Position numbers and translations under genes: made by a program
Assembly: GCA_024277675.1 (NCBI GenBank)
Contig: JAJRUS010000047.1
Location: 37,791-101,790, forward strand
Source of the DNA: a bacterium
GTDB lineage: Bacteria > SZUA-182 > SZUA-191 > JAJRXT01
Direction: 5' to 3'
DNA length: 64,000 nucleotides
Shown: one piece after another, positions 23,753 through 51,904 of the stretch
Layout: each line of letters starts with the position of its first letter
Position numbering within the stretch: the stretch's first letter is position 1
Notes under the pieces: generated by a model
What the model saw: the letters and a program-made list of their open reading frames with translations, nothing else
The model's database searches: none
Told to the model about the DNA's origin: nothing

Positions 23753-23837
23753 TATTTAAACTAGGCTATTGGCATTATATAGTTTATACTATGTTTTTAT
23801 CAGCTCTATTGAAATAGTCATTGATAATGGGAAGATA

Positions 23838-25250
23838 ATGAGACGTAATTTATTTTTTAGCTATATGTTATTTGGTAGTCTTCTTATCGCAGGTTGTATC
23901 AGCACCCTCAGGTTATATTCCGGTCCAGAATTACCCCGGGATAAAATCGCTAAAGTAATAATAGAATCCCCTTTATTACTATATGCAGTGGACAGGAACC
24001 CCCCATTTTACAATCAGCGGCGAAGTATAGTAGCCTGGGAACTGGAGCTGCTTCCCGGATATCATACAATTACCCTTAAGTATAATTCAAATATCAACGG
24101 CCAATCCCTGTTAACGGAAAAAACTATTCCGGTAAAATTTTTGGCTAAAGCCGGACATACATATCGCGCCATGTCTTCCACTGACTGGAATACAAAGAAT
24201 ACGCAAACTTTTAAGGTCTGGTTTGATGACGAAACGCAGGCAGTTCTTAGCGCAGTTGAGCCTAAACCGAAAGATATTAATTCAGCCTTAATAGAGGCGA
24301 TAAAAAAAGGCGATTTAAATGCCGCCAGAACGCTCATGGAGAAAGGCGCTGATGTAAATAACCGGGATGCGGGTGGTTGGACGCCCTTAATGTATGCGGT
24401 TAGAAATAATCAGAACTATCTCGTACATGTGATGCTGATTAAAGGCGCTGATGTAAACGCAACCACCGAGCTGGGCACGACAGCCTTCATGTTGGCGGCC
24501 GGTACCGGCCAGAAAGATATCTTACAAGCTATGCTGGATAAGGGCGCTGATCTGAATGCAAAAGACAGGGCCGGCTGGACACCCATAATGCTGGCCACCA
24601 GAAACGGTCATGCCGGTATCGTGAAATTTTTGCAGAATAAGGGCGCCGATGTAAATGCAGAAACAGAGACTGGGCTGACCGCCTTTCTCTTGGCGGTAGA
24701 AAAGGGTCGGCTGGAGATTGTAGAAACCCTATTAAATAAAACCGCCGATATTGACCTGGCGCTTGAGGATGGGACAACCCCCTTGATATCTGCGGCCAAA
24801 AGTGGCCATATCGATATTGCCAAGGCCTTGTTAGGTAAGGGCGCCGATGTAAATTTAAAGACTGATGCCGGGGTAACGGCTTTAATGTATGCCGCTAAAG
24901 AGGGCTACACTGACATTGCAGAAGCTATCCTGGCTAAAAATGTCAATATAAATGCAAAAGACAATCACCAGGTAACCGCTTTGATGGAAGCCGCCGCTGG
25001 CGGCCACACTGATATCGTACGGTTACTACTATATAAAGGGGCTGAGGTAAATATCAAAAACAATGACGGTACAACAGCTTTAATGTTGGCAGCAATCGAG
25101 GGTCACACCGCTGTTCTACAGGCACTGCTGGATAAGGGCGCTGATTTAAACCAGCAGGATAACTATGGCCGAACGGCCTTAACCCTGGCGGCCAGGAATC
25201 TCCAAACGGGGGCGGTTATATTGCTTAAAGAGGCTGGAGCAAAAGAATAA
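23838..25250 (+). CDS. Ankyrin-repeat lipoprotein (about 10 ANK repeats)
   Basis: Start moved to the in-frame ATG giving MRRNLFFSYMLFGSLLIAGC (lipobox). Repeated (G)ADVNAKD..G.T(P/A)LM(L/Y)AA...GH motifs. Confidence 0.8.
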   Translation: MRRNLFFSYMLFGSLLIAGCISTLRLYSGPELPRDKIAKVIIESPLLLYAVDRNPPFYNQRRSIVAWELELLPGYHTITLKYNSNINGQSLLTEKTIPVKFLAKAGHTYRAMSSTDWNTKNTQTFKVWFDDETQAVLSAVEPKPKDINSALIEAIKKGDLNAARTLMEKGADVNNRDAGGWTPLMYAVRNNQNYLVHVMLIKGADVNATTELGTTAFMLAAGTGQKDILQAMLDKGADLNAKDRAGWTPIMLATRNGHAGIVKFLQNKGADVNAETETGLTAFLLAVEKGRLEIVETLLNKTADIDLALEDGTTPLISAAKSGHIDIAKALLGKGADVNLKTDAGVTALMYAAKEGYTDIAEAILAKNVNINAKDNHQVTALMEAAAGGHTDIVRLLLYKGAEVNIKNNDGTTALMLAAIEGHTAVLQALLDKGADLNQQDNYGRTALTLAARNLQTGAVILLKEAGAKE

Positions 25251-25402: not shown

Positions 25403-26803
25403 TTATAAGTGATATTTCTTGATCTTGCGGTAGAGGGTTTTATAGTCTATTTTAAGTCGTTGGGCCGCCTTAACCTTATTGCCATGTGCCTCTTCTATGG
25501 CCTGTCGTATGGCCTGTTTCTCTACCTGTTCTATGGCAGCCTGGCTTATTTCCTTTAAAGATGTCCGGTTATTATAATTAGCAGCCGGGCTCATATTAGA
25601 CGGCATAAATTGAGATATGGGCGACTGAAACAAATGATAGGGTTGAATAATATCCGGTGAGAGTAATACTGCCCGGCGAATGACGTTTCTCAATTCCCTG
25701 ACGTTTCCCCGCCATTCCTGTTCCGATAGCCAGTTTATGGCTTCTTCAGAAAAACCGTGAAGCTTCTTGCCCAGTTCAGTTGAGGTTTCATGCAGAAATT
25801 TCTTGGCTAAAAGCAGTATATCCTCTTGCCGCTCACGTAGCGGCGGCAGGTAAATAGTAAATTCATTCAATCTATGATATAGGTCTTCCCGTAGATTTTC
25901 TGCGTTAACTTCTTCATCCAGCATAAGGTTTGAAGCGGCAATAATTCTTACATCCACGGTTATGGGTTTATTACCCCCCAAACGATAAAATTGCCGCTCT
26001 TGAAGTACTCGCAACATTTTTCTCTGGGTGCTCAGTGGAATATTGGCTACTTCATCCAGGAACAGCGTACCATCCTGAGCTAATTCAAAATAACCGGCTT
26101 TACTTTGATTAGCGCCCGTAAAGGCTCCTTTTTCATAGCCGAACAACTCGCTTTCGATAAGCGTATCGGGTATGGCGCCGCAATCAACCGGCACAAAAGG
26201 CTTATCTTTTCGAGAACTTTTCCGGTGGATAAAATGAGCCACCAGTTCTTTGCCGGTACCGGTTTCTCCTTGCAAAATCACGGTAAAGTTGGTTTTAGCC
26301 ACTTGTTCCACTTGATAGCTTATTCTCTGTATCTGGTGACTGGTCCCCATCAGTGAAAACAACGATGATTGGTCTCTTAGTTGTTCCCGTAGAAATTCAA
26401 CCTCCTGCTGCAACATAAAGTGATCCAATACCCGTTTAATGGTATACACAATCTGCTCATTGTCAAAGGGTTTGGTGAGAAAATCAGAAGCGCCCGTCTT
26501 TATGGCCTGAACAGAAGAAGGGATATCGCCATGAGCGGTAAGCATAATCACCGGCAACGAATAATTAATCTCCTTAATCTTTTTTAAAGCTTCCATGCCA
26601 TCCATGGTGGGCATCTTTATATCCAACAGCACTATATCGGGGGGCTGTTTTTTAACTTTGCCGATAGCATCGAGGCCATCTACTGCCTGCTGAACTATAA
26701 ACCCTTCGGCTTTCAGAATATTAGCCAGCAACCAGCGCATATCCTGTTCATCATCTACTATTAAAACAGTAGCCGGACAAAGCTTATCTTTCACTCTATT
26801 CAT
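25403..26803 (-). CDS. Sigma-54-dependent two-component response regulator (NtrC family)
   Basis: 466 aa. Receiver (VLIVDDE...LLDIKMP), AAA+ (GETGTGKE, GAFTGA, ESELFGYEKGAFTGA), C-terminal Fis-type HTH. Confidence 0.9.
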   Translation of the reverse strand: MNRVKDKLCPATVLIVDDEQDMRWLLANILKAEGFIVQQAVDGLDAIGKVKKQPPDIVLLDIKMPTMDGMEALKKIKEINYSLPVIMLTAHGDIPSSVQAIKTGASDFLTKPFDNEQIVYTIKRVLDHFMLQQEVEFLREQLRDQSSLFSLMGTSHQIQRISYQVEQVAKTNFTVILQGETGTGKELVAHFIHRKSSRKDKPFVPVDCGAIPDTLIESELFGYEKGAFTGANQSKAGYFELAQDGTLFLDEVANIPLSTQRKMLRVLQERQFYRLGGNKPITVDVRIIAASNLMLDEEVNAENLREDLYHRLNEFTIYLPPLRERQEDILLLAKKFLHETSTELGKKLHGFSEEAINWLSEQEWRGNVRELRNVIRRAVLLSPDIIQPYHLFQSPISQFMPSNMSPAANYNNRTSLKEISQAAIEQVEKQAIRQAIEEAHGNKVKAAQRLKIDYKTLYRKIKKYHL

Positions 26804-26808
26804 CTCCT

Positions 26809-28962
26809 TTATGCTTTTTCTTGAAAAATGGGGAGCGAAATCTTCACCTTAAGCCCCCCTTGAGCCAGATTAAAAGCGGAAATCTTACCCTGATGTTGTT
26901 CCAGAATTCTTTTTGAAATCGATAATCCCAGCCCTACACCCCTGACCCGGGTGGTAAAAAACGGATCAAATATAGAGGCTAAATACTCTTCGGGAATACC
27001 AGGGCCATTATCAATTATATATAAGTTAAGCAGTTGATTTGTCTGGTCTGATTCTGCCGTTATCCGAATTTCTCCCGCTTGGGTCAGCCCCTCGATAGAG
27101 TTAAGGGTTATGTTCATCAATACTTGCTCTAATTGGTTTCTATCACCCATAATAATCGGCATATCAGGCGGATACTCCCGTTTGACCTTGATCCCTTTTT
27201 TGTTTAATTCCGATTTCAATAACAATAACATCTTTTGTACCAGATCACCCATGTTTATGGGCACAAATTTAGTGTTACTCGACGAAGGTCTGGCAAAGTT
27301 CAACAGGGCATTGATTACCTTACTGGCAGCAGATGCATTGCGATTTATGACTAGAAGGTGTTCGGTGATATTAGCCGGAGGGTTTAGGTTTTGTAAACAG
27401 AATTGAGCCGACCCGGCGATAATAGCCAGCGGATTACCTAAATCATGAGCTAAGCCAACCGCAATCTGACCCACTGCCGACATTTTTTCGGAATCTACCA
27501 GAATTTGTTCTTGCTTTTTCTGAGTGGTAATGTTCTGGGTCAGTTCTAATACTTGAATCACCTCGCCGGTATGATCACAAATCGGAGTGGTGGTAATTTG
27601 ATAATAGTGAACCTGTCCATTCTTGTCAAGCCGCAACTCATGTTGTTCAACCCTGTTATGCTCAAAGGTTTTGACTGCCGGACAATTATCACAGATGCGC
27701 TGAAGCCGGTAACAGGTCTCATAGCAATGTGTATCGGTAATGCTTTTGAGAGAACCCACCCGCTGGGTTACATTTTTATTGGCCCAGAGCAGCTTAAAGT
27801 TTTTGTCTATTACAGATAGCTCCGCCCCGATGGCGCTTATGATGTTGTCCAGTTTTTGTTTTTCCTGCTTGATTTCTAAAGTCTGGGCATCCACTTCCTT
27901 TTCCAGTTTGTCGGCATATAAGGCCCGGTTTTCGGCTTGCATCCGTTCTTTGTTGATTCGAAAGATAAAAAAGTTGGTTATCAATAACCCACTGATTACT
28001 GCCAGAGAAAAGAATAGTATTTGATAGAAACTTTTTCGTACCAACTGGGTGACTTCACTGAAAGGGGCTGATATGACTATCATCCAGGTGTGCGGCCCAA
28101 TCTTGATGGGCGAGTAGGCCACCAATTTGTCCTTTTTGCCGGCAGCCAGGTAGCGGCCGTTACCGGCAATTTTTTCTTTCGTTATTTTCCTTTCCATATC
28201 AAAAGAAATGTGGCAGCCAAAGCATTTATCTTTGACTTTAACTATAGATCGATTGATCATTTCAGGGTGTTCGGGGTGGTGTAGTAAAGCCCCATTTCCA
28301 TCTAATAAAAAGGCGTAGCCGGATTTACCCGATTTAATGTGAGAAATGAATTTTGCGATAATCCTGTTCAACGAAATCGCAAATGCCAGCACCTGGGGTT
28401 CGTCAGTCCCGGCTGATATCGCAGCCGGCAATTTAGTGGCTATTAGAAAGGCTTTGGTATTATAGGCTTTATTGCGGGAAATATTAAACTGCTCGAATTG
28501 GAAAATTGCAGAAATTTTAATTTCTCCGGGTTTAATACCGGATATTTTCCCCCAGAATTGCTTTTCCAAATTTTTTGAATAAGCGTCAGCCAGTTTACTC
28601 AGGGTGCGGTCTTCGACCCCGTTTTTCGTTATGCGCCAGACATCAATAACCGCTGTTCCTTGAATGCTGCTATATAATTTAGTTTTAAAATCCTGCTTCC
28701 AGAGCAGATCATCTATGGCGGCCAGTTGCCTCAAATTCCGCTTAAGTGAAGCCAGGTATTCCTCTATACCCGTGGCTGCCTCTTGGGCCAAAATGAGTTG
28801 TTGCCCATTGAATTGGTTAGCCATTTCCTTTTCGGTGGTATAATATATAAACGCTCCAAAGCCGATGGTAAGACAAATAAATATTATTGAAGCTATCCAC
28901 ACTATTCGTTGAATATTGAACTGCTTTTTAGGGAGATTTTTTTTATTCTCAGTCTTTTCCAT
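26809..28962 (-). CDS. Sensor histidine kinase with periplasmic sensor domain carrying a CXXCH heme-c motif and a Cys-rich PAS domain
   Basis: 717 aa. TM helices flanking a ~270-aa periplasmic region containing KCFGCH. Cytoplasmic PAS with CYETCYRLQRICDNCP. HisKA (LAHDLGNPL). HATPase (DNGPGIP...GVGLGLSISK). Confidence 0.85.
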   Translation of the reverse strand: MEKTENKKNLPKKQFNIQRIVWIASIIFICLTIGFGAFIYYTTEKEMANQFNGQQLILAQEAATGIEEYLASLKRNLRQLAAIDDLLWKQDFKTKLYSSIQGTAVIDVWRITKNGVEDRTLSKLADAYSKNLEKQFWGKISGIKPGEIKISAIFQFEQFNISRNKAYNTKAFLIATKLPAAISAGTDEPQVLAFAISLNRIIAKFISHIKSGKSGYAFLLDGNGALLHHPEHPEMINRSIVKVKDKCFGCHISFDMERKITKEKIAGNGRYLAAGKKDKLVAYSPIKIGPHTWMIVISAPFSEVTQLVRKSFYQILFFSLAVISGLLITNFFIFRINKERMQAENRALYADKLEKEVDAQTLEIKQEKQKLDNIISAIGAELSVIDKNFKLLWANKNVTQRVGSLKSITDTHCYETCYRLQRICDNCPAVKTFEHNRVEQHELRLDKNGQVHYYQITTTPICDHTGEVIQVLELTQNITTQKKQEQILVDSEKMSAVGQIAVGLAHDLGNPLAIIAGSAQFCLQNLNPPANITEHLLVINRNASAASKVINALLNFARPSSSNTKFVPINMGDLVQKMLLLLKSELNKKGIKVKREYPPDMPIIMGDRNQLEQVLMNITLNSIEGLTQAGEIRITAESDQTNQLLNLYIIDNGPGIPEEYLASIFDPFFTTRVRGVGLGLSISKRILEQHQGKISAFNLAQGGLKVKISLPIFQEKA

Positions 28963-29221
28963 CGTATATATATACTTCGTCCGCTGTTATATTCAGTTAA
29001 CTACACTACTATCGACAAGCTCTGATTAACCGCAGTCAGCTTGAGGGGGATGATTCCGGTAGCAGGCGGGAGAGCAGCGGGGCCTGGGGTTCGGCAAATG
29101 CGTCTATATAATTTCCTGTACAGGAACAAAAAACACAAAAGCCCCCCGCTTTCCACTACCGGGCAGGCAAATATGAACACAATGCTTTGCTGAATACAGG
29201 CTGCATTTGATGAAAAATTTT

Positions 29222-30022
29222 CTAAGGTACTGATTTGGCACACCTGAAGCCAACATTTTCATCATCGGTAATAGGGGTAAATTTACTACGCATAGTAGTA
29301 AGTGCATCATATTTGGCATCCATAAATGAGCCGCCTCGCAATACGTAACGCTCCTTACCGTAGAACTCATCTTCATGCTTATTACCGGGGTACGGCAGAT
29401 AATTATCGGCGGTCCACTCCCACACATTGCCGGCCATATCATAACAACCGTATGGACTGACCCCCTTAGGGTAACTGCCTACCTTGGTGGTGCCGCGTTT
29501 TCTGGATTTTTCAAAGTTTAATTTCTTCCTGGAGAATTTATTCCCCCAGGGAAACAATCTGCCGTCGGCGCCGCGGGCGGCCTTTTCCCATTCAGCTTCA
29601 GTAGGCAAGCGTTTACCCACCCATTCACAATAAGCCACCGCATTTTCCCAATTAACATACACCACCGGGTGTTTGCCCTTACCCCTGGGCATATCCCCGC
29701 CGGCATCCTCCCAGCTAAGCGGAATCGCCGCCCCGGTAGCCGCTATAAACTTTTTATACTCGTCATTAGTTACTTCGTATTTATCAATATAAACGGCATC
29801 CACATTAACCTTATGTGCCGGGGTAGCGCTGTCATGGTACTTAACCATTCCCCCCAAAGTGCCGACTATTTTTTCCAGCCGGGCCTCATCTATACCCATA
29901 GTAAATTCACCGGCCGGCACCAATACCATTCCAGTTGGAACATCCTCCGCAGCCACGGATTTAATATAAAAAACCAACAAACATATCACTAAAACAACAA
30001 GTTTTTTCTTACTCATAAACAC
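29222..30022 (-). CDS. Secreted formylglycine-generating enzyme (FGE/SUMF1) family protein
   Basis: 266 aa. Signal peptide. VNWENAVAYCEWVGKRLPTEAEWEKAARG...GNVWEWT...GFRCA motifs. Confidence 0.85.
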   Translation of the reverse strand: MFMSKKKLVVLVICLLVFYIKSVAAEDVPTGMVLVPAGEFTMGIDEARLEKIVGTLGGMVKYHDSATPAHKVNVDAVYIDKYEVTNDEYKKFIAATGAAIPLSWEDAGGDMPRGKGKHPVVYVNWENAVAYCEWVGKRLPTEAEWEKAARGADGRLFPWGNKFSRKKLNFEKSRKRGTTKVGSYPKGVSPYGCYDMAGNVWEWTADNYLPYPGNKHEDEFYGKERYVLRGGSFMDAKYDALTTMRSKFTPITDDENVGFRCAKSVP

Positions 30023-30053
30023 CTCCGTTCAGAATATTATAACAAACCGGACA

Positions 30054-30068
30054 GGGGTCATTGACCCC
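30054..30068. promoter_or_regulatory. Perfect palindrome GGGGTCATTGACCCC about 30 bp upstream of the FGE gene start
   Basis: Identical 15-mer at 19832..19846. Degenerate copy at 3082..3096. Overlaps a putative -35/-10 region (TTGTTATAAT downstream). Confidence 0.4.
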
Positions 30069-30096
30069 AGGTTGGATTAACGATGTGGAACCGTAA

Positions 30097-31098
30097 TTAA
30101 CGGGCACAACGAAATCCCACATCATCATAAATACCATCAGCCTTCAGCTTTTTACGATAAATGGTAGTGGCCATAAAGGGTTTTGACTTAAATGATCCTC
30201 CCCGGGCAACCCGCAGGTTTTGGTCCGCTGCTTCAACACTTAGGGCAGAGCCCGGATATGGTTTATACTTGTCGGCAGTCCATTCCCACACATTACCGGC
30301 CATATCATAGCAATCAAATTTACTGATTCCTTTCTCATACCTGCCGGTAATAGTGGGGGCGTTGAATCTTTCTCCTTTTGTATTAGTCCAGGCCCCTCGA
30401 AATTTTCGTCCCCAGGGAAAATAGAAGCTCTTTTTCCCGCCGCTGGCGGCTATTTCCCATTCCGCCTCAGTAGGCAGTCGCTTTTTTGCCCACTTGCAAT
30501 AGGCGGCTGCATCACTCCAGCTTACATTAACTACGGGATAGTCATCCTGATTCCTGCGGTAAGCGCCTCCGCGCCAGTGCCGTGGAGCCGGATGATGGGC
30601 AGCCTTTATGAATTTCTTGTAGCGGCTGTTGGTAACTTCATATTTGTCAATACGGAAAGCCTTCAATTTCACCGTATGTTTAGGAACGGATGCCAGGTAA
30701 TCCTTCTCGGAACCGCCTATGTTTTTGAGAATCCATTTTATTCTTTTTTGATCAATTCCCATGCTGTATTCGTCGGCAGGAATTGATACCATCCGGCTTC
30801 GGTCCTGATCGGCTCTAACCAGCGACAGGTTCACCTCGGCAACGGCGCCGGCAAATATCTCTATATTAGCCGTCTCCTGTAAATAGCCGCTGGTTTCCGC
30901 AATAATTACATGCTTGCCGACGTCTATATTTATTTTCAGCTTTTTGGTAGTAGCTAAATGAGCCGCCTGACCATCAATGAAAATATAGGCTTCCGGAATA
31001 CACTTAATTATCAACTTACCCACCTCGGCCCTGGCGATTGAATTACCAATCAGTAAAAACATCCCGCCTATTAACCAGCCTGCCAAAAAATTTTTCAT
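30097..31098 (-). CDS. Secreted PEGA-like domain + FGE/SUMF1 domain protein
   Basis: 333 aa. Signal peptide. N-terminal beta-rich PEGA-like segment (GKLIIKCIPEAYIFIDG...VGKHVIIAE). C-terminal VNVSWSDAAAYCKWAKKRLPTEAEWE...GNVWEWT...GFRCA. Confidence 0.8.
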   Translation of the reverse strand: MKNFLAGWLIGGMFLLIGNSIARAEVGKLIIKCIPEAYIFIDGQAAHLATTKKLKINIDVGKHVIIAETSGYLQETANIEIFAGAVAEVNLSLVRADQDRSRMVSIPADEYSMGIDQKRIKWILKNIGGSEKDYLASVPKHTVKLKAFRIDKYEVTNSRYKKFIKAAHHPAPRHWRGGAYRRNQDDYPVVNVSWSDAAAYCKWAKKRLPTEAEWEIAASGGKKSFYFPWGRKFRGAWTNTKGERFNAPTITGRYEKGISKFDCYDMAGNVWEWTADKYKPYPGSALSVEAADQNLRVARGGSFKSKPFMATTIYRKKLKADGIYDDVGFRCAR

Positions 31099-31144
31099 TA
31101 TAATTACCTCTTAGATTCAAAGAACTGTACCGGAAAATTAAATC

Positions 31145-32014
31145 TTATTTTACGGTTACACAACTAATGCCAACTTCCTTGGGACTGTTTCCGGTATCAT
31201 CAAAATCGCGATCTATGCAACGCAAGTAAAACTTAACGTTTAAAACCGACCCGCCTCGCACTACTTTATAAAAACCGGTCTCAGGCCCCGTCGGGTTTTT
31301 ATTCGGGCTATACTTATAATATCCGGGATCATACCAATCAGCTACCCATTCAGCCACATTACCGGCCATGTCCAAGGCCCCATATGCTGAAAAACCTTGA
31401 GGCTTGCTGCCCACGGGTTGATACGTCCGGTTTCCATCCCATTGCCGGCCGAAGGGAATATTTATCGACTCAGGCGGTTGGTTGCCCCAGGGATAAAGTC
31501 TTTCGTCAATCCCCCGAGCGGCTTTCTCCCATTCCGCTTCAGTGGCTAAGCGCTTACCCGCCCACTTGCAATAGCTGTCTGCATCCTGCCAACTCACATC
31601 AACCACCGGATAATTATCCAATCCAGCCGGAAAGCCAGCCTTGCTCCAGATATCAAATTCCGGATCGCTGGTATGCGCCGGTATTCGATGATTAGTAGCC
31701 TGCACAAACTTAAAATATTGAGCATTTGTAATCTCATGTTTGTCAATGTAAAAGGCATCCAGATAAACCTTATGTGCCGGTTTTTCGTCATTATAATAAG
31801 GTTTATCGGTGCCCATTACAAACTCTCCCGCCGGCACCAGCATCATCAGGGATCCATCTTTTTTATTAAGCCGGGTAGCCGGCAAACCAGCGGCCACAGC
31901 TAAACCGGGAAAGAAAAAACAAAATGTCAATATTCCCGGTAAACATCGCCTGCCAATAATTACGGCGCTTTTGGTACGACCTTTTTTTGTCTCTGGCCCG
32001 GTATCAATCGGCAT
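31145..32014 (-). CDS. Exported FGE/SUMF1 family protein
   Basis: 289 aa. Hydrophobic N-terminus. VDVSWQDADSYCKWAGKRLATEAEWEKAARG...GNVAEWV... Confidence 0.8.
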   Translation of the reverse strand: MPIDTGPETKKGRTKSAVIIGRRCLPGILTFCFFFPGLAVAAGLPATRLNKKDGSLMMLVPAGEFVMGTDKPYYNDEKPAHKVYLDAFYIDKHEITNAQYFKFVQATNHRIPAHTSDPEFDIWSKAGFPAGLDNYPVVDVSWQDADSYCKWAGKRLATEAEWEKAARGIDERLYPWGNQPPESINIPFGRQWDGNRTYQPVGSKPQGFSAYGALDMAGNVAEWVADWYDPGYYKYSPNKNPTGPETGFYKVVRGGSVLNVKFYLRCIDRDFDDTGNSPKEVGISCVTVK

Positions 32015-32078: not shown

Positions 32079-32489
32079 CTAAGAATTTTTTACCGCCTTC
32101 ATATTATTGCTCTTGGCCGGGGGAAATAAGGCCTGTTTTACGGTGGTAACGAGGTTTTCAATTACAAACGGCTTAGCCACAAATTCATAGTTACCAATTT
32201 CCTGTAGCCTGCTATATAGAACATCATTTCTATAAGGGCCGATAACTATTACCGGCGTGTTTGGCTGGTGATTCCTTATACATTTCAATATGTTATTAGT
32301 AGATAAGTTGGTCAGCGGCGTATCCAGCAATACCAAATCAAGTCCTTTTTTAGAAACAGCCTCAAGCGTATCGGCTAAAGAATCACTGGTTATGATATGG
32401 CAATTCTGGGTCTGGAATACTTTTTTAAGCAGCCAACACATATCTGCGTCTGAACCCACCACGAGTATATTTTTAGCGTCCTTAGGCAT
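32079..32489 (-). CDS. Single-domain response regulator (CheY-like receiver)
   Basis: Receiver fold (ILVVGSDADM...DLVLLDTPL...KPF). Start placed at MPKDAKN (ATG 32489..32487) downstream of GGGAGA and of a sigma-54 promoter. The ORF track's longer ORF starts at 32516. Confidence 0.7.
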   Translation of the reverse strand: MPKDAKNILVVGSDADMCWLLKKVFQTQNCHIITSDSLADTLEAVSKKGLDLVLLDTPLTNLSTNNILKCIRNHQPNTPVIVIGPYRNDVLYSRLQEIGNYEFVAKPFVIENLVTTVKQALFPPAKSNNMKAVKNS

Positions 32490-32536
32490 AAATTTTCCAT
32501 CTCCCGAAATTAACATATAAAATCTTACCTATCCAT

Positions 32537-32554
32537 TTGCAACCCTTATGCCAT
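32537..32554 (-). promoter_or_regulatory. Sigma-54 (-24/-12) promoter TGGCAT-N5-TTGCA
   Basis: Minus strand reads A-TGGCAT-AAGGG-TTGCA-A with consensus GG/GC spacing. About 38 nt upstream of the receiver gene ATG. Confidence 0.6.
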
Positions 32555-32693
32555 ATACAAAGGCAGAAAACAGCCCTCATAAAATAAGTTAACTGGTTGA
32601 AAAGAATATACTATAAAAACAAACTAAGAAAATGAATTAGATTATGGTTAGTTAGAATATGGCATGGATGCCATATGGGAGGGCAATGTTGGC

Positions 32694-37058: not shown

Positions 37059-38078
37059 ATGGCGATATTTGATAAAGACAATAAAAACAAACAGCAAAGC
37101 CCCTGGGACAAGCTTTCCAGCGGTTCCAATCTACCCAAACTTCCGCAGATCAAGCTGCCCAATGCAGGGATAATTTTACTGATATTTTTAGTTCTCTGGC
37201 TGGCCAGCGGCATTTTCGTAGTGGGGCCTGATGAGCAGGGAGTGGTAAGGCGGTTTGGCAAGTTGACAAGGTTGGCGATGCCGGGCATAAGCTGGCATTT
37301 TCCCTCACCGATAGAGGAAGTGGATGTCCCTAAAATTACCGAGGTAAAGCGGGTTGAAGTTGGCTTTCGTACCCGTGATCCGGGGCCGCCGGCCATTTAT
37401 CAGGATGTGTTACCCGAAGCGCTTATGTTGACCAGCGATGAGAATATAATCAGCGTACAGTTTGTAGTGCAATATATGATCAAAGATGCTCCGGCCTATT
37501 TATTCAACGTGCGGAACGTTGATAAAACCGTACGCAATGCCTCAGAAGCGGCCATGCGGGAAGTAATAGGCAAAACCAATATCGATGAAGCGCTGACTGT
37601 GGCCCAGGCCAGTGTTCAGGAAAGTGTCCGAGAATTACTGCAACAGATACTGGATAGCTATAAGGCCGGTTTGAAGGTAAGCCTGGTACAACTGCAGGAA
37701 GTGAAGGTGCCGAGACAGGTAATCCAGGCCTTTGAAGATGTGGTTAATGCCAAAAAAGACAAAAAAAGGTTAATCAACGAATCGCAAGGGTATCAGGAGG
37801 ATGTGTTGCCCAAGGCCCGCGGCCGGGCAGCACAAATTTTAAAACAAGCTGAAGCCTACCGGGACAAAAAAGTAAAGCACGCCCTGGGAGATGCCAAAAA
37901 GTTCCTTGAAATTCTCAAAGAATACCGCAAGGCCAAGAATATTACCAGAAAAAGACTGTTTATTGAAACCATGGAAGAAGTCCTGCCTTCAATGGAGAAG
38001 GTTATTGTGGATAAAAATGTCAAAGGCGGAATATTACCGCTGTTGCAATTGAAACCAGCTACTAAATCCGCTAAATAG
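37059..38078 (+). CDS. hflK: FtsH protease modulator HflK (SPFH/band 7)
   Basis: 339 aa. N-terminal TM. SPFH domain. Followed by hflC. Confidence 0.85.
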   Translation: MAIFDKDNKNKQQSPWDKLSSGSNLPKLPQIKLPNAGIILLIFLVLWLASGIFVVGPDEQGVVRRFGKLTRLAMPGISWHFPSPIEEVDVPKITEVKRVEVGFRTRDPGPPAIYQDVLPEALMLTSDENIISVQFVVQYMIKDAPAYLFNVRNVDKTVRNASEAAMREVIGKTNIDEALTVAQASVQESVRELLQQILDSYKAGLKVSLVQLQEVKVPRQVIQAFEDVVNAKKDKKRLINESQGYQEDVLPKARGRAAQILKQAEAYRDKKVKHALGDAKKFLEILKEYRKAKNITRKRLFIETMEEVLPSMEKVIVDKNVKGGILPLLQLKPATKSAK

Positions 38079-38091
38079 GGATGGCCCACAT

Positions 38092-38946
38092 ATGAATAGA
38101 AAATTGTCCATTATTCTTATTGCCCTGTTTGCGGTGATGTTTGCCGCCAATCTGGTCTTATTTACCGTAGATGAGCGGCAACAAGTGGTAATTACCCGTT
38201 TCGGCAAGCCGATAAAAGTAATTAAAGAGCCGGGGCTGTACATTAAAAGCCCACTGGAGCAAACTACTTTATTTGACGACCGTTTATTGGATTACGACTC
38301 CCTGCCGGCCAAAATTTATACCAAGGATAAACAATTGCTGGTGGTAGATAACTACTGCAAGTGGAGAATAACGGATGCGTTATTGTTTTTACAATCAGTA
38401 ATGAATGAACGTTCTGCCCAGACGCGCATCGATGATATTGTGTTCTCTGAGTTGAGGTAGCGGTTGAAGCATTATACTCTAACCAATGTGGTCTCCACCG
38501 ACCGTGAGTTAATACTGAAATCAGTAACTGAGGCCAGCCGGAAAAAGGCTATAAAATTAGGCATTGGGATAGTCGATGTACGCATTAAACGGGCCGATCT
38601 GCCGGATGAAAACGCCAAGCATCTATATGGTGAAATGCGGGCTGAACGTGAGAAACAGGCCAAAAAATACCGCTCCGAAGGCGAAGAAGAGGCGGTTAAA
38701 ATAAGGGCCGCTACCGATGAAGAAAGGGTGAAAATTCTGGCTACGGCTTATCAGCAGGAACAGGAAATAAAAGGTAGAGGGGATGCCGAGGCCACCCGCA
38801 TTTATGCCGAGGCTTATAAGCAAGACCCTGAATTCTTTGCTTTCACTCGTTCATTGGATGCTTACAAAAAGACACTGAAATCACAAACCACGCTGGTCGT
38901 CTCGCCCGACAGCGAATTCCTGCAATACCTGCAAAAATCCCGCTGA
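38092..38946 (+). pseudogene. hflC: FtsH protease modulator HflC, interrupted by in-frame TAG at 38458..38460
   Basis: ORFs 38092..38460 and 38464..38946 share one frame. The joined 283-aa product aligns along its length with E. coli HflC (e.g. VDVRIKRADLP...RAEREKQAKKYRSEGEEEA...GRGDAEATRIYAEAY...FFAFTRSL). The stop falls in ...IVFSELR*RLKHY... Confidence 0.6.
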
Positions 38947-38969: not shown

Positions 38970-40418
38970 CTAAAATTCCAGTTGCTTTTCCGGCTTATGC
39001 CGTTCAGCTTGTTTAAATGTTTTATCGGTTAAATATGCCGGCGGTCGTTCGATTTTATTGTTCTGTAACAAATCACCTATGGTTATTATTTGGATTTTGG
39101 GAAATTGCTTATCCCAAATGGGGGGTTTATAATATCCTTGTGAGACGGCATAACTTTTCATCGGTTTGGTAGGTTCAGCCAAAGTGATAAACACCCCCAT
39201 TTGAGCATGGTTACTATCCACCACCGAACAGAAATCCCTGATCTGGGCTACTCCCACCTGTCGGCCACCTTTAACCTGCACCAATATTGATTTAATCTTG
39301 TTTGTTTTATCATCTTGAAAGTAGATTACCCCATCTATACCTCTGTCGGCTCCCTTCTTTTTACCTCCCATTGGCCTTGCGCCAATTAAACTCAAAGCCC
39401 ACCATTCAAACTGGTGTTTGTTGGCTTGCGCCAGGGCTTCGGCTCCGGCTAAATCCACCGGCTCACCGATAACCCTATATGGCAAATCACCATATTTATC
39501 CTTTAACCTGTTTTTTATCAAAGCGATAGCCAGATGAGTAATGTCTATACCGATCCACTGCCGGTTCAGTTCCTGAGCTGCGTCTATGGCAGTGCCACAA
39601 CCGCAGAACGGGTCTAACACTATATCTCCCTCGTTGCTGCTGGCCAGTATAATTCGCCGCAGCAATTCCAGCGGTTTTTGGGTGGGATAACCCAGTCGTT
39701 CTTTGGCCGAGGGGGCTATTATTGGAACTTCCCAAACATCATCAGGATGTTTACCCAACGGATGGAGACTTTGTTCTCCAAAATCTATGCCGTTTCTTAT
39801 GTTGCCTATATAATGTTTGAATCTTTCCTTAGTTGTATCTGCATATGGAACTCGTACATCATCAGCGTTAAACTTCCAGTTTACGCCCTTTGTATAATAG
39901 AAAATAATGTCATGTCTTCTGCCATATCTTTTAGGGGAAATACCAGCACCTTTATAGTACCAAACAATTTCATTCTGAAATCCTCCTCCTCCAAATATAA
40001 TATCCAATATAATCTTCAAATAATGGCTGGCGTTAGGGTCGCAGTGCAAGTATAATGCACCATTTTCTTTAAGAACCCTATGCAACTCCACCAAGCGGAT
40101 AGCCATCATAGTTAAATAAGTCATGGTGTCGCTCTCGCCCATAAACCCGCGAAAACCTCGCATTAACTCTACCAACTTGGCGGGGGCATATTCTGTCATC
40201 AGATGGTAAGCTTTCTCAGAAGTTTCTCCCCAATGCCAGCTATCGCTAAAAGCTTCCACCTGAGCTGCCGATTCAGCGCCGCCGGTATCTTTAAATAATA
40301 CATTATAATTTCGCTTGCTGTTAAACGGAGGGTCTAAATAAATTAAGTCCACACTCTCATCACTTATATATTCGCCTAACACATCCAGATTATCCCCATA
40401 GTAAAGACAATTAGTCAT
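38970..40418 (-). CDS. Beta-class N6A/N4C DNA methyltransferase fused to a C-terminal Mrr-like (PD-(D/E)xK) nuclease domain
   Basis: 482 aa. Motif IV DLIYLDPPFNS near the N-terminus, then motif I VLDPFCGCGTA (beta order). C-terminal DRGIDGVIYF...LVQVKGG resembles the Mrr catalytic core. Markedly AT-rich. Confidence 0.75.
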   Translation of the reverse strand: MTNCLYYGDNLDVLGEYISDESVDLIYLDPPFNSKRNYNVLFKDTGGAESAAQVEAFSDSWHWGETSEKAYHLMTEYAPAKLVELMRGFRGFMGESDTMTYLTMMAIRLVELHRVLKENGALYLHCDPNASHYLKIILDIIFGGGGFQNEIVWYYKGAGISPKRYGRRHDIIFYYTKGVNWKFNADDVRVPYADTTKERFKHYIGNIRNGIDFGEQSLHPLGKHPDDVWEVPIIAPSAKERLGYPTQKPLELLRRIILASSNEGDIVLDPFCGCGTAIDAAQELNRQWIGIDITHLAIALIKNRLKDKYGDLPYRVIGEPVDLAGAEALAQANKHQFEWWALSLIGARPMGGKKKGADRGIDGVIYFQDDKTNKIKSILVQVKGGRQVGVAQIRDFCSVVDSNHAQMGVFITLAEPTKPMKSYAVSQGYYKPPIWDKQFPKIQIITIGDLLQNNKIERPPAYLTDKTFKQAERHKPEKQLEF

Positions 40419-40448
40419 TTTTCGCTACCCCTTGTCAAACACATTTAT

Positions 40449-41642
40449 TTATACCTCGCCCCGTATTTCGTAGCCGAAGTTTTTAGGCAGGCAAGTCTCT
40501 TTGAAGCAATCATTGAAATAATCATCAGTCATCCCGGCGATAAAATCACGCACTATCTCAGCTTTATGCTTATTCAAATAAGCTTCATTTTCTATTGGAA
40601 TATCCTTATGATTTAAGAAATCCTGATAAATTCTGGATTCAAGGTTTTCTGAGGTCATATCCTCTATAAACCGGTCAAATAAAATAGAGAACATTCTTTC
40701 AATTTTATTCGCCTCAGTTTTTATCTGCGGGTTCAGATAAATATGCCGGTAATTAAACTGCTTTAATTTAAAAAGCGCTGCTGAAATATCAGGGCTGAAA
40801 CCGACCGAATCCCGATCAATGCTGCTTTCGATAACATCCTTAACCAGCGTATCCACTATCTCCCGATTGTCGTTACCCAGTATTTTAGTACATTCTTCGG
40901 GAACATCCGCTTTACTTATTAACTTTACCATTATGGCATCCTGGATATCCCGGCCGATATAGCTGATGGTATCGGCAAGCCTGACCACACAGCCTTCCAG
41001 CGTCATAGGCGTTATTTCAAAGGCTTTACCCTTATTCACTTTGGCCTGCAACTCCGCCGCATGTATATCCCAGTCCTTGTCTTTGTCGGGCGTCAATCTC
41101 ATATTATGTATCTCCCCGTCATGACACAGGATTCCATCCACTACCTGCAAGGTAAGATTTAAGCCCCAGCCTTTGTTTTCAATCTGTTCTAAGAAGATAA
41201 CGCTTTGCACATTATGCAGAAAATTATTTATGCCATGTTTTTGACATATTTGGGAAATATATGCTTCGCCGTCATGCCCGAACGGCGGATGTCCGATATC
41301 ATGCCCCAGGGCAATGGCCTCTATCAAATCCTCATTCAGGCGCAAGGCCCGGCCGATGGTGCGGGCAATCTTGGATAATAACTGCACATGAATCATGCGG
41401 TGGGTAATAAGGTCGTTTTTAAACAGATAAAAGACCTGGGTCTTATCTATATAACGCGAGAAGGCGAAAGAATGCAGAATCCGGTCGGCATCCCGCCAGA
41501 ATATGGGGCGGATATCAAGCTCATCCGAGGCGTCGGGCCGCTTCCTGGCTCCACATTCATTTTTGGCGGCGAATTTGGATAGGGTGGCCGTTTCCCGCTC
41601 TCGCAGCTGATTTTTTAAACGGGCAATAAGTTCTTGATCCAT
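40449..41642 (-). CDS. HD-domain dGTP triphosphohydrolase-like protein (Dgt family)
   Basis: 397 aa. RDADRILHSFAFSRYIDKTQVF, THRMIHVQL, GHDIGHPPFGHDGE motifs. AT-rich. Co-oriented with the MTase-nuclease fusion. Confidence 0.8.
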   Translation of the reverse strand: MDQELIARLKNQLRERETATLSKFAAKNECGARKRPDASDELDIRPIFWRDADRILHSFAFSRYIDKTQVFYLFKNDLITHRMIHVQLLSKIARTIGRALRLNEDLIEAIALGHDIGHPPFGHDGEAYISQICQKHGINNFLHNVQSVIFLEQIENKGWGLNLTLQVVDGILCHDGEIHNMRLTPDKDKDWDIHAAELQAKVNKGKAFEITPMTLEGCVVRLADTISYIGRDIQDAIMVKLISKADVPEECTKILGNDNREIVDTLVKDVIESSIDRDSVGFSPDISAALFKLKQFNYRHIYLNPQIKTEANKIERMFSILFDRFIEDMTSENLESRIYQDFLNHKDIPIENEAYLNKHKAEIVRDFIAGMTDDYFNDCFKETCLPKNFGYEIRGEV

Positions 41643-51139: not shown

Positions 51140-51904
51140 ATGCATAATTCTAAAAAATCTAAAGCCCTGTGGATAGGATTTATTATAATTTGTCTGGTGG
51201 GTATATATTTTAAAGCGGCCCACGCCAAAGCGCCCCAGGATATGGTACTCATCCCGGCCGGTGAATTTACCATGGGCAGTGAGGATGGTGATAAGGATGA
51301 ACTTCCACAGCGCCAGGTATACCTGGATGCCTTCTATATAGCTAAATATGAGGTTACCAATGCCCAATACCGTAAGTTCGTTAAAGCTACCGGTTATAGA
51401 GAGCCATATGGCTGGGATGATAAAAATTTTAATCAGCCCAATCAACCGGTAGTCGGTGTTTCATGGGAGGATGCAGCGGCATATTGCAAATGGGCCGGCC
51501 GGCGCCTACCCACTGAAGCCGAATGGGAAAAGGCGGCCCGCGGCGACGGGGGCTGGATATTTCCCTGGGGCCAGGATTGGAATAAGCAAAATGCCAACAG
51601 CTCATCATTGGACAAGCATAAAACTGCGCCGGTGGGCAGTTATCCTCAAGGAGTAAGTTCCTATGGGGTATATGATATGGCCGGCAATGTATGGGAATGG
51701 TGTGCTGATTGGTATGTAGCCGATTATTATCTCCTGGGTCCCGGGCGGAATCCCCCCGGTCCTTCAACCAGTGATTCGAAAGTAATCCGTGGCGGCGGCT
51801 GGTTTGATTCCCCTACCCAGTTGCGCACCACCAACCGCTATTACAGTCATCCGATGGTAAGGTACAACGGCATTGGTTTCCGCTGTGCCAAGGATTATAA
51901 ATAA
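51140..51904 (+). CDS. Exported FGE/SUMF1 family protein (fourth paralog)
   Basis: 254 aa. Signal peptide. VGVSWEDAAAYCKWAGRRLPTEAEWEKAARG...GNVWEWCADW...GFRCA. Starts 4 nt after the proS stop. Confidence 0.85.
   Translation: MHNSKKSKALWIGFIIICLVGIYFKAAHAKAPQDMVLIPAGEFTMGSEDGDKDELPQRQVYLDAFYIAKYEVTNAQYRKFVKATGYREPYGWDDKNFNQPNQPVVGVSWEDAAAYCKWAGRRLPTEAEWEKAARGDGGWIFPWGQDWNKQNANSSSLDKHKTAPVGSYPQGVSSYGVYDMAGNVWEWCADWYVADYYLLGPGRNPPGPSTSDSKVIRGGGWFDSPTQLRTTNRYYSHPMVRYNGIGFRCAKDYK

What the first reader, a model, noticed from the sequence alone, without database searches (positions are those of the whole stretch)
26809..28962. Sensor kinase with a c-type heme-binding motif (CFGCH) in its periplasmic domain and a four-Cys PAS domain, paired with an NtrC-type sigma-54 activator
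The CXXCH motif lies about 55 residues before the second TM helix, in a ~270-aa periplasmic sensor region. This suggests covalent heme attachment and redox or gas sensing, as in the heme-c PAS sensors of Geobacter. The cytoplasmic PAS carries CYETCY...CDNC, a possible metal or Fe-S site. The cognate regulator has an intact GAFTGA loop, so the output is sigma-54-dependent transcription. One candidate target promoter lies 4 kb away at 32537..32554.
Basis: partly seen in the sequence, partly recalled or inferred. Interest (0 to 1): 0.55.

Follow-up and report, generated by a model that had tools for sequence, protein, structure and literature searches.

The report
Heme-c double-Cache sensor kinase family
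This membrane sensor kinase carries a conserved heme-attachment motif (CXXCH) in the membrane-near half of an ordinary double-Cache periplasmic sensor, and it belongs to a large, unannotated kinase family that looks like a second, separate origin of heme-based Cache sensors.

Summary
ORF 26809..28962(-) encodes a 717-aa histidine kinase with two TM helices. A ~270-aa periplasmic domain holds one CFGCH (aa 247-251), followed by PAS, HisKA and HATPase_c. An intact NtrC-type sigma-54 activator lies 5 bp downstream.

The motif is not chance. Among the 151 closest cluster representatives, drawn from 1.84 billion proteins, 118 carry exactly one CXXCH, at the aligned column wherever that column is covered. 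Met235, His232, Leu226, Ser253 and Phe254 are conserved with it and are absent from the CXXCH-less sister group.

The sensor is a dCache_1 double-Cache domain. The motif sits in the beta2-beta3 connector of the membrane-proximal module, with no insertion relative to heme-less relatives. It does not match PF11845, the Geobacter GSU0582/Tll0287 'sCache_heme' family described in 2026 as the first cofactor-bearing Cache. So it is an analogue of that family, not a member.

The candidate sigma-54 promoter (32538..32553, -) and an upstream perfect palindrome are conserved in an orthologous MAG locus. They precede an operon of one REC gene and three secreted FGE-sulfatase-like genes.

Only three of the four PAS cysteines are conserved. 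Heme attachment, the signal sensed and the presence of a cytochrome c maturation system remain untested.

The parts
26809..28962 (-). Sensor histidine kinase gene, 717 aa: TM1, periplasmic dCache_1 with CXXCH, TM2, coiled coil, PAS, HisKA, HATPase_c
   Evidence: ORF list. Pfam domains. Catalytic motifs H506, N-box 617, G1 651 and G2 675 are intact.
28837..28905 (-). TM helix 1 (aa ~20-42), preceded by a K/R-rich N-terminus
   Evidence: Kyte-Doolittle window of 19 residues above 1.6; flanking charges.
28027..28836 (-). Periplasmic double-Cache (dCache_1-type) sensor domain, aa 43-312
28027..28389 (-). Membrane-proximal Cache module (aa ~192-312), which holds the heme motif in its beta2-beta3 connector
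28210..28224 (-). CFGCH (C247, C250, H251): predicted covalent heme c attachment site and proximal His ligand
   Evidence: 118 of 151 nearest cluster representatives carry one CXXCH, at the aligned column wherever it is covered. The three motif residues are present in nearly all-or-none fashion (121/122/121 of 149); two members keep degenerate remnants.
28258..28269 (-). H232-P-E-M235 segment: Met235 is the predicted distal axial ligand, and His232 is a one-residue insertion specific to the CXXCH group
   Evidence: M235 is present in 111/119 CXXCH members against 3/33 CXXCH-less members. H232 is present in 98/119 and is a gap in 26/33 CXXCH-less members. M is invariant in alignments A1 and A4.
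27958..28026 (-). TM helix 2 (aa ~313-335)
   Evidence: In the family, a TM segment follows the CXXCH by a median of 63 aa in 94 of 95 members.
27517..27816 (-). Cytoplasmic PAS domain (aa 383-482)
   Evidence: Pfam PAS_4, E = 6e-7.
27682..27726 (-). PAS cysteine cluster C413-x3-C417-x6-C424-x2-C427. Only C413, C424 and C427 are conserved (CY-x9-10-CxxCP motif).
   Evidence: Orthologues. The motif recurs in 19 of 31 PAS matches across the family.
25403..26803 (-). NtrC-type response regulator / sigma-54 enhancer-binding protein, 466 aa, starting 5 bp after the kinase stop codon
   Evidence: Pfam Response_reg, Sigma54_activat, AAA_lid_14 and HTH_8. GAFTGA, Walker A/B and D61. The kinase-regulator pairing is conserved in L001, L003 and L009.
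29222..32014 (-). Three tandem genes for secreted FGE-sulfatase-family (PF03781) proteins: 29222..30022, 30097..31098, 31145..32014. These are the likely regulated cargo.
   Evidence: Pfam E = 5e-53 to 7e-59. Signal-peptide-like N-termini. The same trio lies upstream of the kinase in L002.
32079..32516 (-). Stand-alone receiver (REC) gene, first gene after the promoter. The true start is probably M10 at 32489.
   Evidence: Pfam Response_reg. The L002 orthologue starts at the equivalent of M10 and has a stop codon upstream.
32538..32553 (-). Sigma-54 promoter-like element TGGCATAAGGGTTGCA (GG at -24, GC at -12)
   Evidence: An identical 22-nt block TATATGGCATAAGGGTTGCAAA is present in L002 at the same position.
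32657..32676 (.). Perfect palindrome ATATGGCAT-N2-ATGCCATAT, ~115 bp upstream of the -24 element: a candidate enhancer (UAS) for the sigma-54 activator
   Evidence: one match against 0.07 expected. TATGGCAT-N2-ATGCCATA is conserved in L002.

Best explanation
The gene encodes a two-TM sensor histidine kinase whose periplasmic sensor is a dCache_1-type double-Cache domain. In its membrane-proximal module, the connector between strands beta2 and beta3 has acquired a CXXCH motif. After export, the cytochrome c maturation machinery would attach heme covalently to C247 and C250. H251 would serve as the proximal axial ligand and M235 most likely as the distal one, with H232 nearby.

The heme sits next to TM2. 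A change in iron redox state, or displacement of the Met ligand by a diatomic gas (NO, CO or O2), would then rearrange the proximal module and pass through TM2 and the coiled coil to the PAS, DHp and CA domains. The kinase would phosphorylate the adjacent NtrC-type activator on D61. The activator would bind the palindrome at 32657..32676 and drive the sigma-54 promoter at 32538..32553. That promoter expresses a receiver protein, three secreted FGE-sulfatase-like proteins and possibly the kinase-regulator pair itself.

Shown here: the motif, the fold, the predicted topology, the family-wide co-conservation, the intact catalytic motifs, and the conserved promoter and palindrome. Inferred: heme attachment, Met ligation, the nature of the signal, and which promoter the regulator controls.

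The kinase belongs to a widespread, kinase-specific family that current annotation does not recognise. The family is distinct from the PF11845 sCache_heme family and probably arose independently.
Against: No experiment shows heme on this protein or on any family member. No cytochrome c maturation gene, and no other CXXCH protein, lies in the 64-kb window or the fetched orthologous contigs, so the organism's ability to make heme c is unverified. I could not inspect model coordinates, so the M235-H251 geometry is inferred from conservation only. The sigma-54 match is not significant by count alone. A 259-bp gap separates the third FGE gene from the kinase, so a single transcript is not established; a hairpin there is not better than shuffles, z = -0.36. 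The FGE trio is linked to the kinase only in the closest relative, while other orthologues have different neighbours. The signal sensed is unknown.
Confidence: 0.68

Rival explanations
1. The CXXCH, with H232 and M235, forms a non-heme site. It could be a Cu(I)/Zn-type metal-binding site or a periplasmic thiol-disulfide redox switch, so the kinase would sense a metal or oxidative stress directly.
For: Cys, His and Met are also typical Cu(I) ligands, and periplasmic CXXC pairs can form redox-active disulfides (general knowledge). No heme or maturation genes were demonstrated.
Against: Among members with both cysteines, the His directly after the second Cys is kept in all but two degenerate cases (CVECR, CRQCY). 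The three residues therefore appear or disappear together. That is the signature of the cytochrome c attachment motif and is not required for a disulfide switch. XX is highly variable, as in heme c motifs. A conserved Met about 12 residues upstream and an aromatic residue three residues after the His fit an axial ligand and heme packing. The closest functional precedent, CXXCH in periplasmic Cache domains, binds heme c experimentally (PMC12889525).
Confidence: 0.12
2. The sensor is a divergent member of the known sCache_heme family (PF11845; DUF3365/Tll0287; Geobacter GSU0582/GSU0935), fused below another Cache module. This is what the first reader's analogy implies.
For: It shares a Cache-type fold, a periplasmic location, a single CXXCH and a histidine kinase output, which is one of the outputs described for sCache_heme (PMC12889525).
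Confidence: 0.05
3. The kinase is an ordinary small-molecule-binding dCache sensor, and the heme (if present) or the motif is structural only and plays no part in signalling.
For: Most characterised dCache_1 domains bind amino acids or other small ligands in the membrane-distal module (PMC4822843). A distal module is present here.
Against: The distal module is the least conserved and lowest-confidence part of the domain; pLDDT falls to 55-73 in several blocks. Family-specific conservation concentrates in the proximal module around the motif. Purely structural hemes are unusual in sensor domains.
Confidence: 0.1

Closest known systems
sCache_heme domains (Pfam PF11845, DUF3365/Tll0287-like; Geobacter sulfurreducens GSU0582/GSU0935, Thermosynechococcus Tll0287, Pseudomonas azotoformans receptor). 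Source: Deshpande et al. 2026 preprint, PMC12889525.
   Same: It is a periplasmic Cache-superfamily sensor with one strictly conserved CXXCH. It is found mainly in Gracilicutes-type lineages, is fused to signalling outputs including histidine kinases, and is expected to sense redox state or gases.
   Different: Here the scaffold is a double Cache (dCache_1), not a single module. The motif lies in the beta2-beta3 connector of the membrane-proximal module, without any insertion. In sCache_heme it lies in an inserted helix and loop between beta3 and beta4, before the last strand. There is no sequence or profile match to PF11845. The predicted distal ligand is a Met from the same module. The family is almost exclusively made of histidine kinases: no MCP or GGDEF members and no stand-alone forms appeared among the 66 scanned.
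[not shown]
   Different: Canonical members have no cofactor and usually bind small ligands in the distal module. This family has a conserved CXXCH/Met/His/Phe signature in the proximal module and a poorly conserved distal module.
NtrB/NtrC-, AtoS/AtoC- and ZraS/ZraR-type two-component systems that control sigma-54 promoters
   Same: The transmitter is HisKA/HATPase_c; the best NCBIfam similarity is to AtoS and ZraS, though far below their cut-offs. The regulator has REC, AAA+ (GAFTGA) and Fis-type HTH domains. A GG-N10-GC promoter has an upstream palindrome ~115 bp away.
   Different: All equivalog scores are far below cut-off (AtoS 222 against 646; AtoC 426 against 714), so this is not an orthologue of any named system. 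The input domain and the regulated genes, which encode secreted FGE-sulfatase-like proteins, are different.
NreB/AirS-type Fe-S PAS kinases (compared only for the PAS cysteine cluster)
   Same: Both have a cytoplasmic PAS domain with several cysteines in a histidine kinase.
   Different: From my own recollection, NreB uses four cysteines spaced roughly CxxC-x11-CxxC. Here only three cysteines are conserved, in a different pattern (C-x10-CxxC), and no cluster-binding evidence exists.

Membership tests
dCache_1 (PF02743) double-Cache extracytoplasmic sensor | Match to the Pfam HMM at or above the gathering score | tested here: met
   The isolated periplasmic domain scores 46.8 bits against a 45-bit cut-off. 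Within the full-length protein it scores 42.6 bits, just below. 23/23 and 62/66 family members match; best E-values are 8e-24 and 8e-25.
dCache_1 (PF02743) double-Cache extracytoplasmic sensor | Two PAS-like modules stacked on a long N-terminal helix | tested here: met
   [not shown]
dCache_1 (PF02743) double-Cache extracytoplasmic sensor | Location between two TM helices, outside the cytoplasm | tested here: met
   Hydropathy and the positive-inside rule for this protein and across 95 family members. This is a prediction only.
sCache_heme (PF11845, DUF3365/Tll0287-like) | Match to the PF11845 profile, or to solved members 3B47, 3B42, 5B82 | tested here: not met
   No PF11845 hit at E <= 0.01, at E <= 1 in 23 members or at E <= 0.001 in 66 members. 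Family profiles find no sCache_heme chain in the PDB at E <= 10.
sCache_heme (PF11845, DUF3365/Tll0287-like) | Single Cache module with CXXCH in an inserted helix and loop between beta3 and beta4, preceding the last strand | tested here: not met
   The domain is a double Cache. The motif lies between beta2 and beta3 of the proximal module, with three strands after it. Connector length equals that of CXXCH-less relatives. The definition is taken from PMC12889525.
sCache_heme (PF11845, DUF3365/Tll0287-like) | Strictly conserved CXXCH | tested here: met
   118 of 151 nearest representatives carry it. The CXXCH-less ones form a separate cluster apart from two degenerate cases.
c-type heme protein (covalent heme attachment) | CXXCH motif in a segment exported from the cytoplasm | tested here: met
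   (predicted topology).
c-type heme protein (covalent heme attachment) | Cytochrome c maturation system (CcmA-H or ResB/CcsA) in the genome | not testable with these tools
   None is present in the 64-kb window or the fetched orthologous contigs. A WGxxWxWD motif scan and Pfam scans of 40 of the 49 large window ORFs found nothing.
c-type heme protein (covalent heme attachment) | Covalently bound heme shown by heme stain, pyridine hemochrome or mass | not testable with these tools
   This needs an experiment.
NtrC-family bacterial enhancer-binding protein | REC with phospho-acceptor Asp, an AAA+ sigma-54 interaction domain with a GAFTGA loop and Walker A/B, and a C-terminal Fis-type HTH | tested here: met
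   Pfam: Sigma54_activat 8e-69, Response_reg 7e-35, HTH_8 1e-14. GAFTGA 226-231, GETGTGK 179, DE 250, D61. It falls below the cut-off of every named equivalog.
Sigma-54-dependent promoter | TGGCAC-N5-TTGCW with invariant GG and GC, upstream of a gene, with an enhancer site | tested here: inconclusive
   The site has one mismatch, and the count is not above chance. It sits 25-50 nt upstream of the REC gene start, is identical in L002, and has a conserved palindrome ~115 bp upstream. rpoN was not found among the Pfam-scanned window ORFs, and function was not tested.
NreB-type [4Fe-4S] PAS sensor | Four conserved cluster-ligating cysteines in the PAS domain | tested here: not met
   Only C413, C424 and C427 are conserved in the four orthologues, and the spacing differs from my recollection of NreB. 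Cofactor binding is untestable here.

The most novel reading that the evidence does not exclude
This kinase may represent a second, independent origin of covalent heme c within the Cache superfamily. In this reading an ordinary dCache_1 domain converted the beta2-beta3 connector of its membrane-proximal module into a His/Met heme c site by point substitutions (K..YE to C..CH, F to M, plus one inserted His) rather than by capturing a cytochrome fragment. The result would be a widespread family of periplasmic redox or gas sensors found only in kinases, which no database annotates today. It would place the sensing cofactor directly above the transmembrane helix instead of in the distal ligand pocket.
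Probability: 0.6. Interest if true: 0.72.

Novelty: new variant of a known kind. Interest (0 to 1): 0.62.

Why it matters
Cache domains are the largest class of bacterial extracellular sensors. Until a 2026 preprint they were thought to work without cofactors, and that preprint described one heme-c family (sCache_heme, PF11845) as the first exception, explaining it by insertion of a cytochrome fragment.

If the family found here binds heme, three things follow:
- Heme-based sensing would have arisen at least twice in Cache domains, the second time by in-place substitution in a double-Cache scaffold.
- The membrane-proximal module, usually regarded as a passive relay, could be the primary sensing site.
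- Many kinases in Acidobacteriota, Nitrospirota, Ignavibacteria, Zixibacteria and Desulfobacterota-like lineages, now labelled only 'PAS domain S-box protein', would become candidate periplasmic redox, NO, CO or O2 sensors. At least 118 clusters at 50% identity were seen here.

The signature L-x8-M-x11-CxxCH-x-SF gives a direct handle for building a profile and for choosing proteins for heme and ligand-binding assays.

Tried and rejected
- **Word-indexed protein searches.** The periplasmic domain as query found only one relative, P0001. The family alignment A1 as query returned nothing at E <= 1e-10. Both results reflect the tool's sensitivity limit, not absence, since the full HMMER scan found 557 relatives.
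- **Exact look-ups.** The nearest named ProRS relatives, at 62-66% identity, are Desulfofervidaceae, 'Deltaproteobacteria', Syntrophaceae and Geobacter.
- **Maturation genes.** A search for Ccm/ResB/CcsA genes or other cytochromes in the window and fetched loci found nothing (and Pfam). This is uninformative for a 64-kb piece.
- **Terminator.** A terminator between the third FGE gene and the kinase was considered. The hairpin at 29125..29185 folds no better than shuffles (z = -0.36) and the pattern scan found none there, so operon boundaries stay open.
- **afdb50 fold search.** The library was unavailable.
- **Literature.** Searches for dCache or double Cache with heme c or CXXCH returned only the sCache_heme preprint and the 2016 Cache classification paper, and neither describes this family. 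A search for the PAS CxxC motif gave nothing specific.
- **Gene context as a clue to the signal.** Neighbours differ between members, so context does not identify the signal. They include futalosine menaquinone genes, lactate-utilisation genes, TctABC, and NarL-type or GGDEF regulators.
Full report
**1. Observation**

The minus-strand ORF 26809..28962 encodes a 717-aa protein. It contains one CXXCH, CFGCH, at residues 247-251 (window 28210..28224).

Kyte-Doolittle analysis gives two hydrophobic segments, at about residues 20-42 and 313-335. The N-terminus before the first segment and the stretch after the second are rich in Lys and Arg. By the positive-inside rule, residues 43-312 therefore face the periplasm. 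The motif lies about 62-65 residues before TM2. It is the only CXXCH in the 49 ORFs of at least 150 aa in the window.

Pfam finds four domains:
- a Cache match, dCache_1 profile positions 141-240, on residues 188-298
- PAS_4 on residues 383-482
- HisKA on residues 501-560
- HATPase_c on residues 606-712

The H-box, N-box, G1 and G2 motifs are intact.

Five bases after the kinase stop codon starts a 466-aa regulator with REC, Sigma54_activat, AAA_lid_14 and HTH_8 domains. It has GAFTGA at 226-231, Walker A and B motifs, and D61.

**2. The motif is a family character, not chance**

A full HMMER scan of the periplasmic domain against 1.84 billion cluster representatives gave 557 hits at E <= 1e-3 and 140 at E <= 1e-10.

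I examined 151 proteins: the 150 best hits plus the earlier orthologue. Of these, 118 carry exactly one CXXCH. In a MAFFT alignment of the query and these proteins, 119 of 152 rows have it at the same columns. The XX pair varies widely.

The three motif residues appear or vanish together: 121, 122 and 121 of 149 sequences. Positions conserved only in the CXXCH group are:
- Leu226
- Met235, in 111/119 against 3/33
- Ser253
- Phe254, in 113/119
- His232, in 98/119 and a gap in most CXXCH-less relatives

The CXXCH-less relatives cluster together rather than being scattered. There are two exceptions, which carry decayed motifs (CVECR, CRQCY) and sit among CXXCH members.

In 94 of 95 long members a hydrophobic segment follows the motif by a median of 63 residues, and 87 have an N-terminal one. 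Orthologues in two MAGs and one JGI metagenome keep the motif with different XX: CFGCH, CYQCH and CRKCH.

**3. What the sensor domain is**

With a 23-sequence alignment, AlphaFold2 gives a confident model (pLDDT 85.4, pTM 0.87). It shows a long N-terminal helix, a membrane-distal module and a membrane-proximal module.

The connector from G224 to Y271 has a median of 46 residues in CXXCH members and 48 in CXXCH-less relatives. Nothing has been inserted. In the sister group the aligned residues read K/R..Y-E where this group has C..C-H, and F where it has M235.

**4. Relation to known heme-c sensors**

A 2026 preprint (PMC12889525) defines 'sCache_heme' as Pfam PF11845. That family includes Geobacter GSU0582/GSU0935 and Tll0287. 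The preprint calls it the first Cache domain with a covalent cofactor, and shows NO binding for a signalling member.

In that family the CXXCH sits in a helix and loop inserted between beta3 and beta4, before the last strand. The authors propose capture of a cytochrome fragment.

The present family fails the membership tests:
- There is no PF11845 hit at E <= 1 in 23 members or at E <= 0.001 in 66 members.
- There is no profile hit to 3B47, 3B42 or 5B82 at E <= 10.
- The scaffold is double, not single.
- The motif occupies a different topological position and is not an insertion.

The family therefore works like the Geobacter sensors but is not a member of their family. Full-text searches for dCache or double Cache together with heme c found no description of it.

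Named members are labelled only 'PAS domain S-box protein', 'histidine kinase' or 'ATP-binding protein'. They come from Terriglobia/Acidobacteriota, Ignavibacteriales, Nitrospirota, Zixibacteria and Schekmanbacteria. Of 66 scanned members, 59 have HATPase_c, and no MCP or GGDEF output appears among the listed families.

**5. Mechanism**

*Shown here:* the motif, the predicted periplasmic location, the fold, the co-conserved residues, an intact transmitter and an intact sigma-54 activator.

*Inferred:* the maturation system attaches heme to C247 and C250. H251 is the proximal ligand. M235 is the distal ligand, because it is nearly invariant, specific to the CXXCH group and located in the same connector, with H232 nearby. 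A redox change, or replacement of Met by NO, CO or O2, would move the proximal module, which joins TM2 directly, and so set kinase activity.

I put heme attachment at about 0.75-0.8. I give no more than 0.3 to any one signal. By analogy with PF11845, redox state and NO are the leading candidates.

**6. Output circuit**

TGGCATAAGGGTTGCA at 32538..32553(-) is one mismatch from the sigma-54 consensus. Counting alone does not make it significant: 2 matches found against 2.67 expected. However, it lies just upstream of a stand-alone receiver gene, and three secreted FGE-sulfatase-family genes and then the kinase-regulator pair follow on the same strand.

A perfect 9+9 palindrome, ATATGGCAT-N2-ATGCCATAT, lies about 115 bp upstream (0.07 expected). 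In the 80%-identical orthologous MAG locus L002, the 22-nt promoter block is identical, the palindrome core is kept, and the receiver plus three FGE genes precede the kinase. The L002 alignment also indicates that the receiver gene starts at M10, position 32489.

Whether the kinase and regulator are co-transcribed is open. A 259-bp gap precedes the kinase, and it holds no convincing terminator.

The kinase-bEBP pair is conserved in L001, L003 and L009, but the upstream genes differ:
- a papain-like peptidase in L003
- futalosine menaquinone genes overlapping the kinase start in L009

More distant members pair with NarL-type, GGDEF or REC-only partners. The heme-dCache therefore looks like a portable input module.

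**7. PAS cysteines**

C413, C424 and C427 are kept in all four orthologues, and C417 is not. The pattern CY-x9-10-CxxCP recurs in 19 of 31 PAS matches across the family. It is probably a real metal or redox site, but no known family was matched, and it does not fit the four-Cys NreB pattern as I recall it.

**8. Limits**

No maturation genes or other cytochromes lie in the window or the fetched contigs. For a 64-kb sample this is uninformative. The source genome could not be reached. Its ProRS is 62-66% identical to the nearest named relatives, which are Desulfobacterota-like.

**9. Verdict**

The finding is a new variant of a known kind: a dCache_1-derived, kinase-specific, probably independently evolved heme-c Cache sensor family. 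Interest is 0.62.

Noticed in passing
L003:9977-13748 (MAG Dive96_bin3.184): The 56%-identical orthologue has an in-frame stop inside the conserved HHPEHPEM segment (HHP*HPEM). Its downstream sigma-54 regulator is split into two ORFs. This is either a decaying locus or assembly errors in the MAG.
   Followed up: partly
window 51140..51904 (+): A fourth secreted FGE-sulfatase-family paralogue (PF03781, E = 6e-67) sits next to the prolyl-tRNA synthetase gene. The genome therefore carries several of these genes besides the three in the operon upstream of the kinase. No sigma-54 site with intact GG/GC was seen near it.
   Followed up: partly
L009:625-10796 (Logan SRR24270834 contig): In the 45%-identical relative P0002, the heme-dCache kinase overlaps the end of a futalosine-pathway menaquinone gene cluster (UbiA, two CofH_C radical SAM genes, VitK2_biosynth, PNP_UDP_1, Amidohydro_1). 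The same type of sigma-54 regulator follows it. This hints at a link to quinone or respiratory status.
   Followed up: no
window 32657..32676 and 32545..32560: The candidate enhancer palindrome is built from two inverted copies of ATATGGCAT. The same 9-mer also overlaps the -24 element of the sigma-54 promoter (TATATGGCATAAGGG). The reason for this sharing is unexplained.
   Followed up: partly
window 27682..27726 (-) and PAS domains of P0001, P0002, P0073, P0062, P0033, P0088 and others: A three-cysteine PAS motif, G-x-x-CY-x9-10-C-x-x-CP, recurs in many otherwise different sensor kinases. I found no described cofactor or metal for it.
   Followed up: partly
window 38970..41642 (-): This stretch holds a fused N6/N4 DNA methylase and Mrr-type endonuclease gene (482 aa), next to a gene for an HD + HD_assoc phosphohydrolase (397 aa). 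It may be a restriction or defence pair sitting among housekeeping genes.
   Followed up: no
window 23769..25250 (+): This gene encodes a 493-aa lipoprotein-like protein with eight or more ankyrin repeats. It converges on the 3' end of the sigma-54 regulator gene. Ankyrin arrays of this size are uncommon in free-living bacteria.
   Followed up: no
window 37059..38946 (+): A complete SPFH/Band_7 gene is followed by a 160-aa ORF that matches only the C-terminal part of the Band_7 profile (positions 105-175). This may be a truncated or mis-started second paralogue.
   Followed up: no
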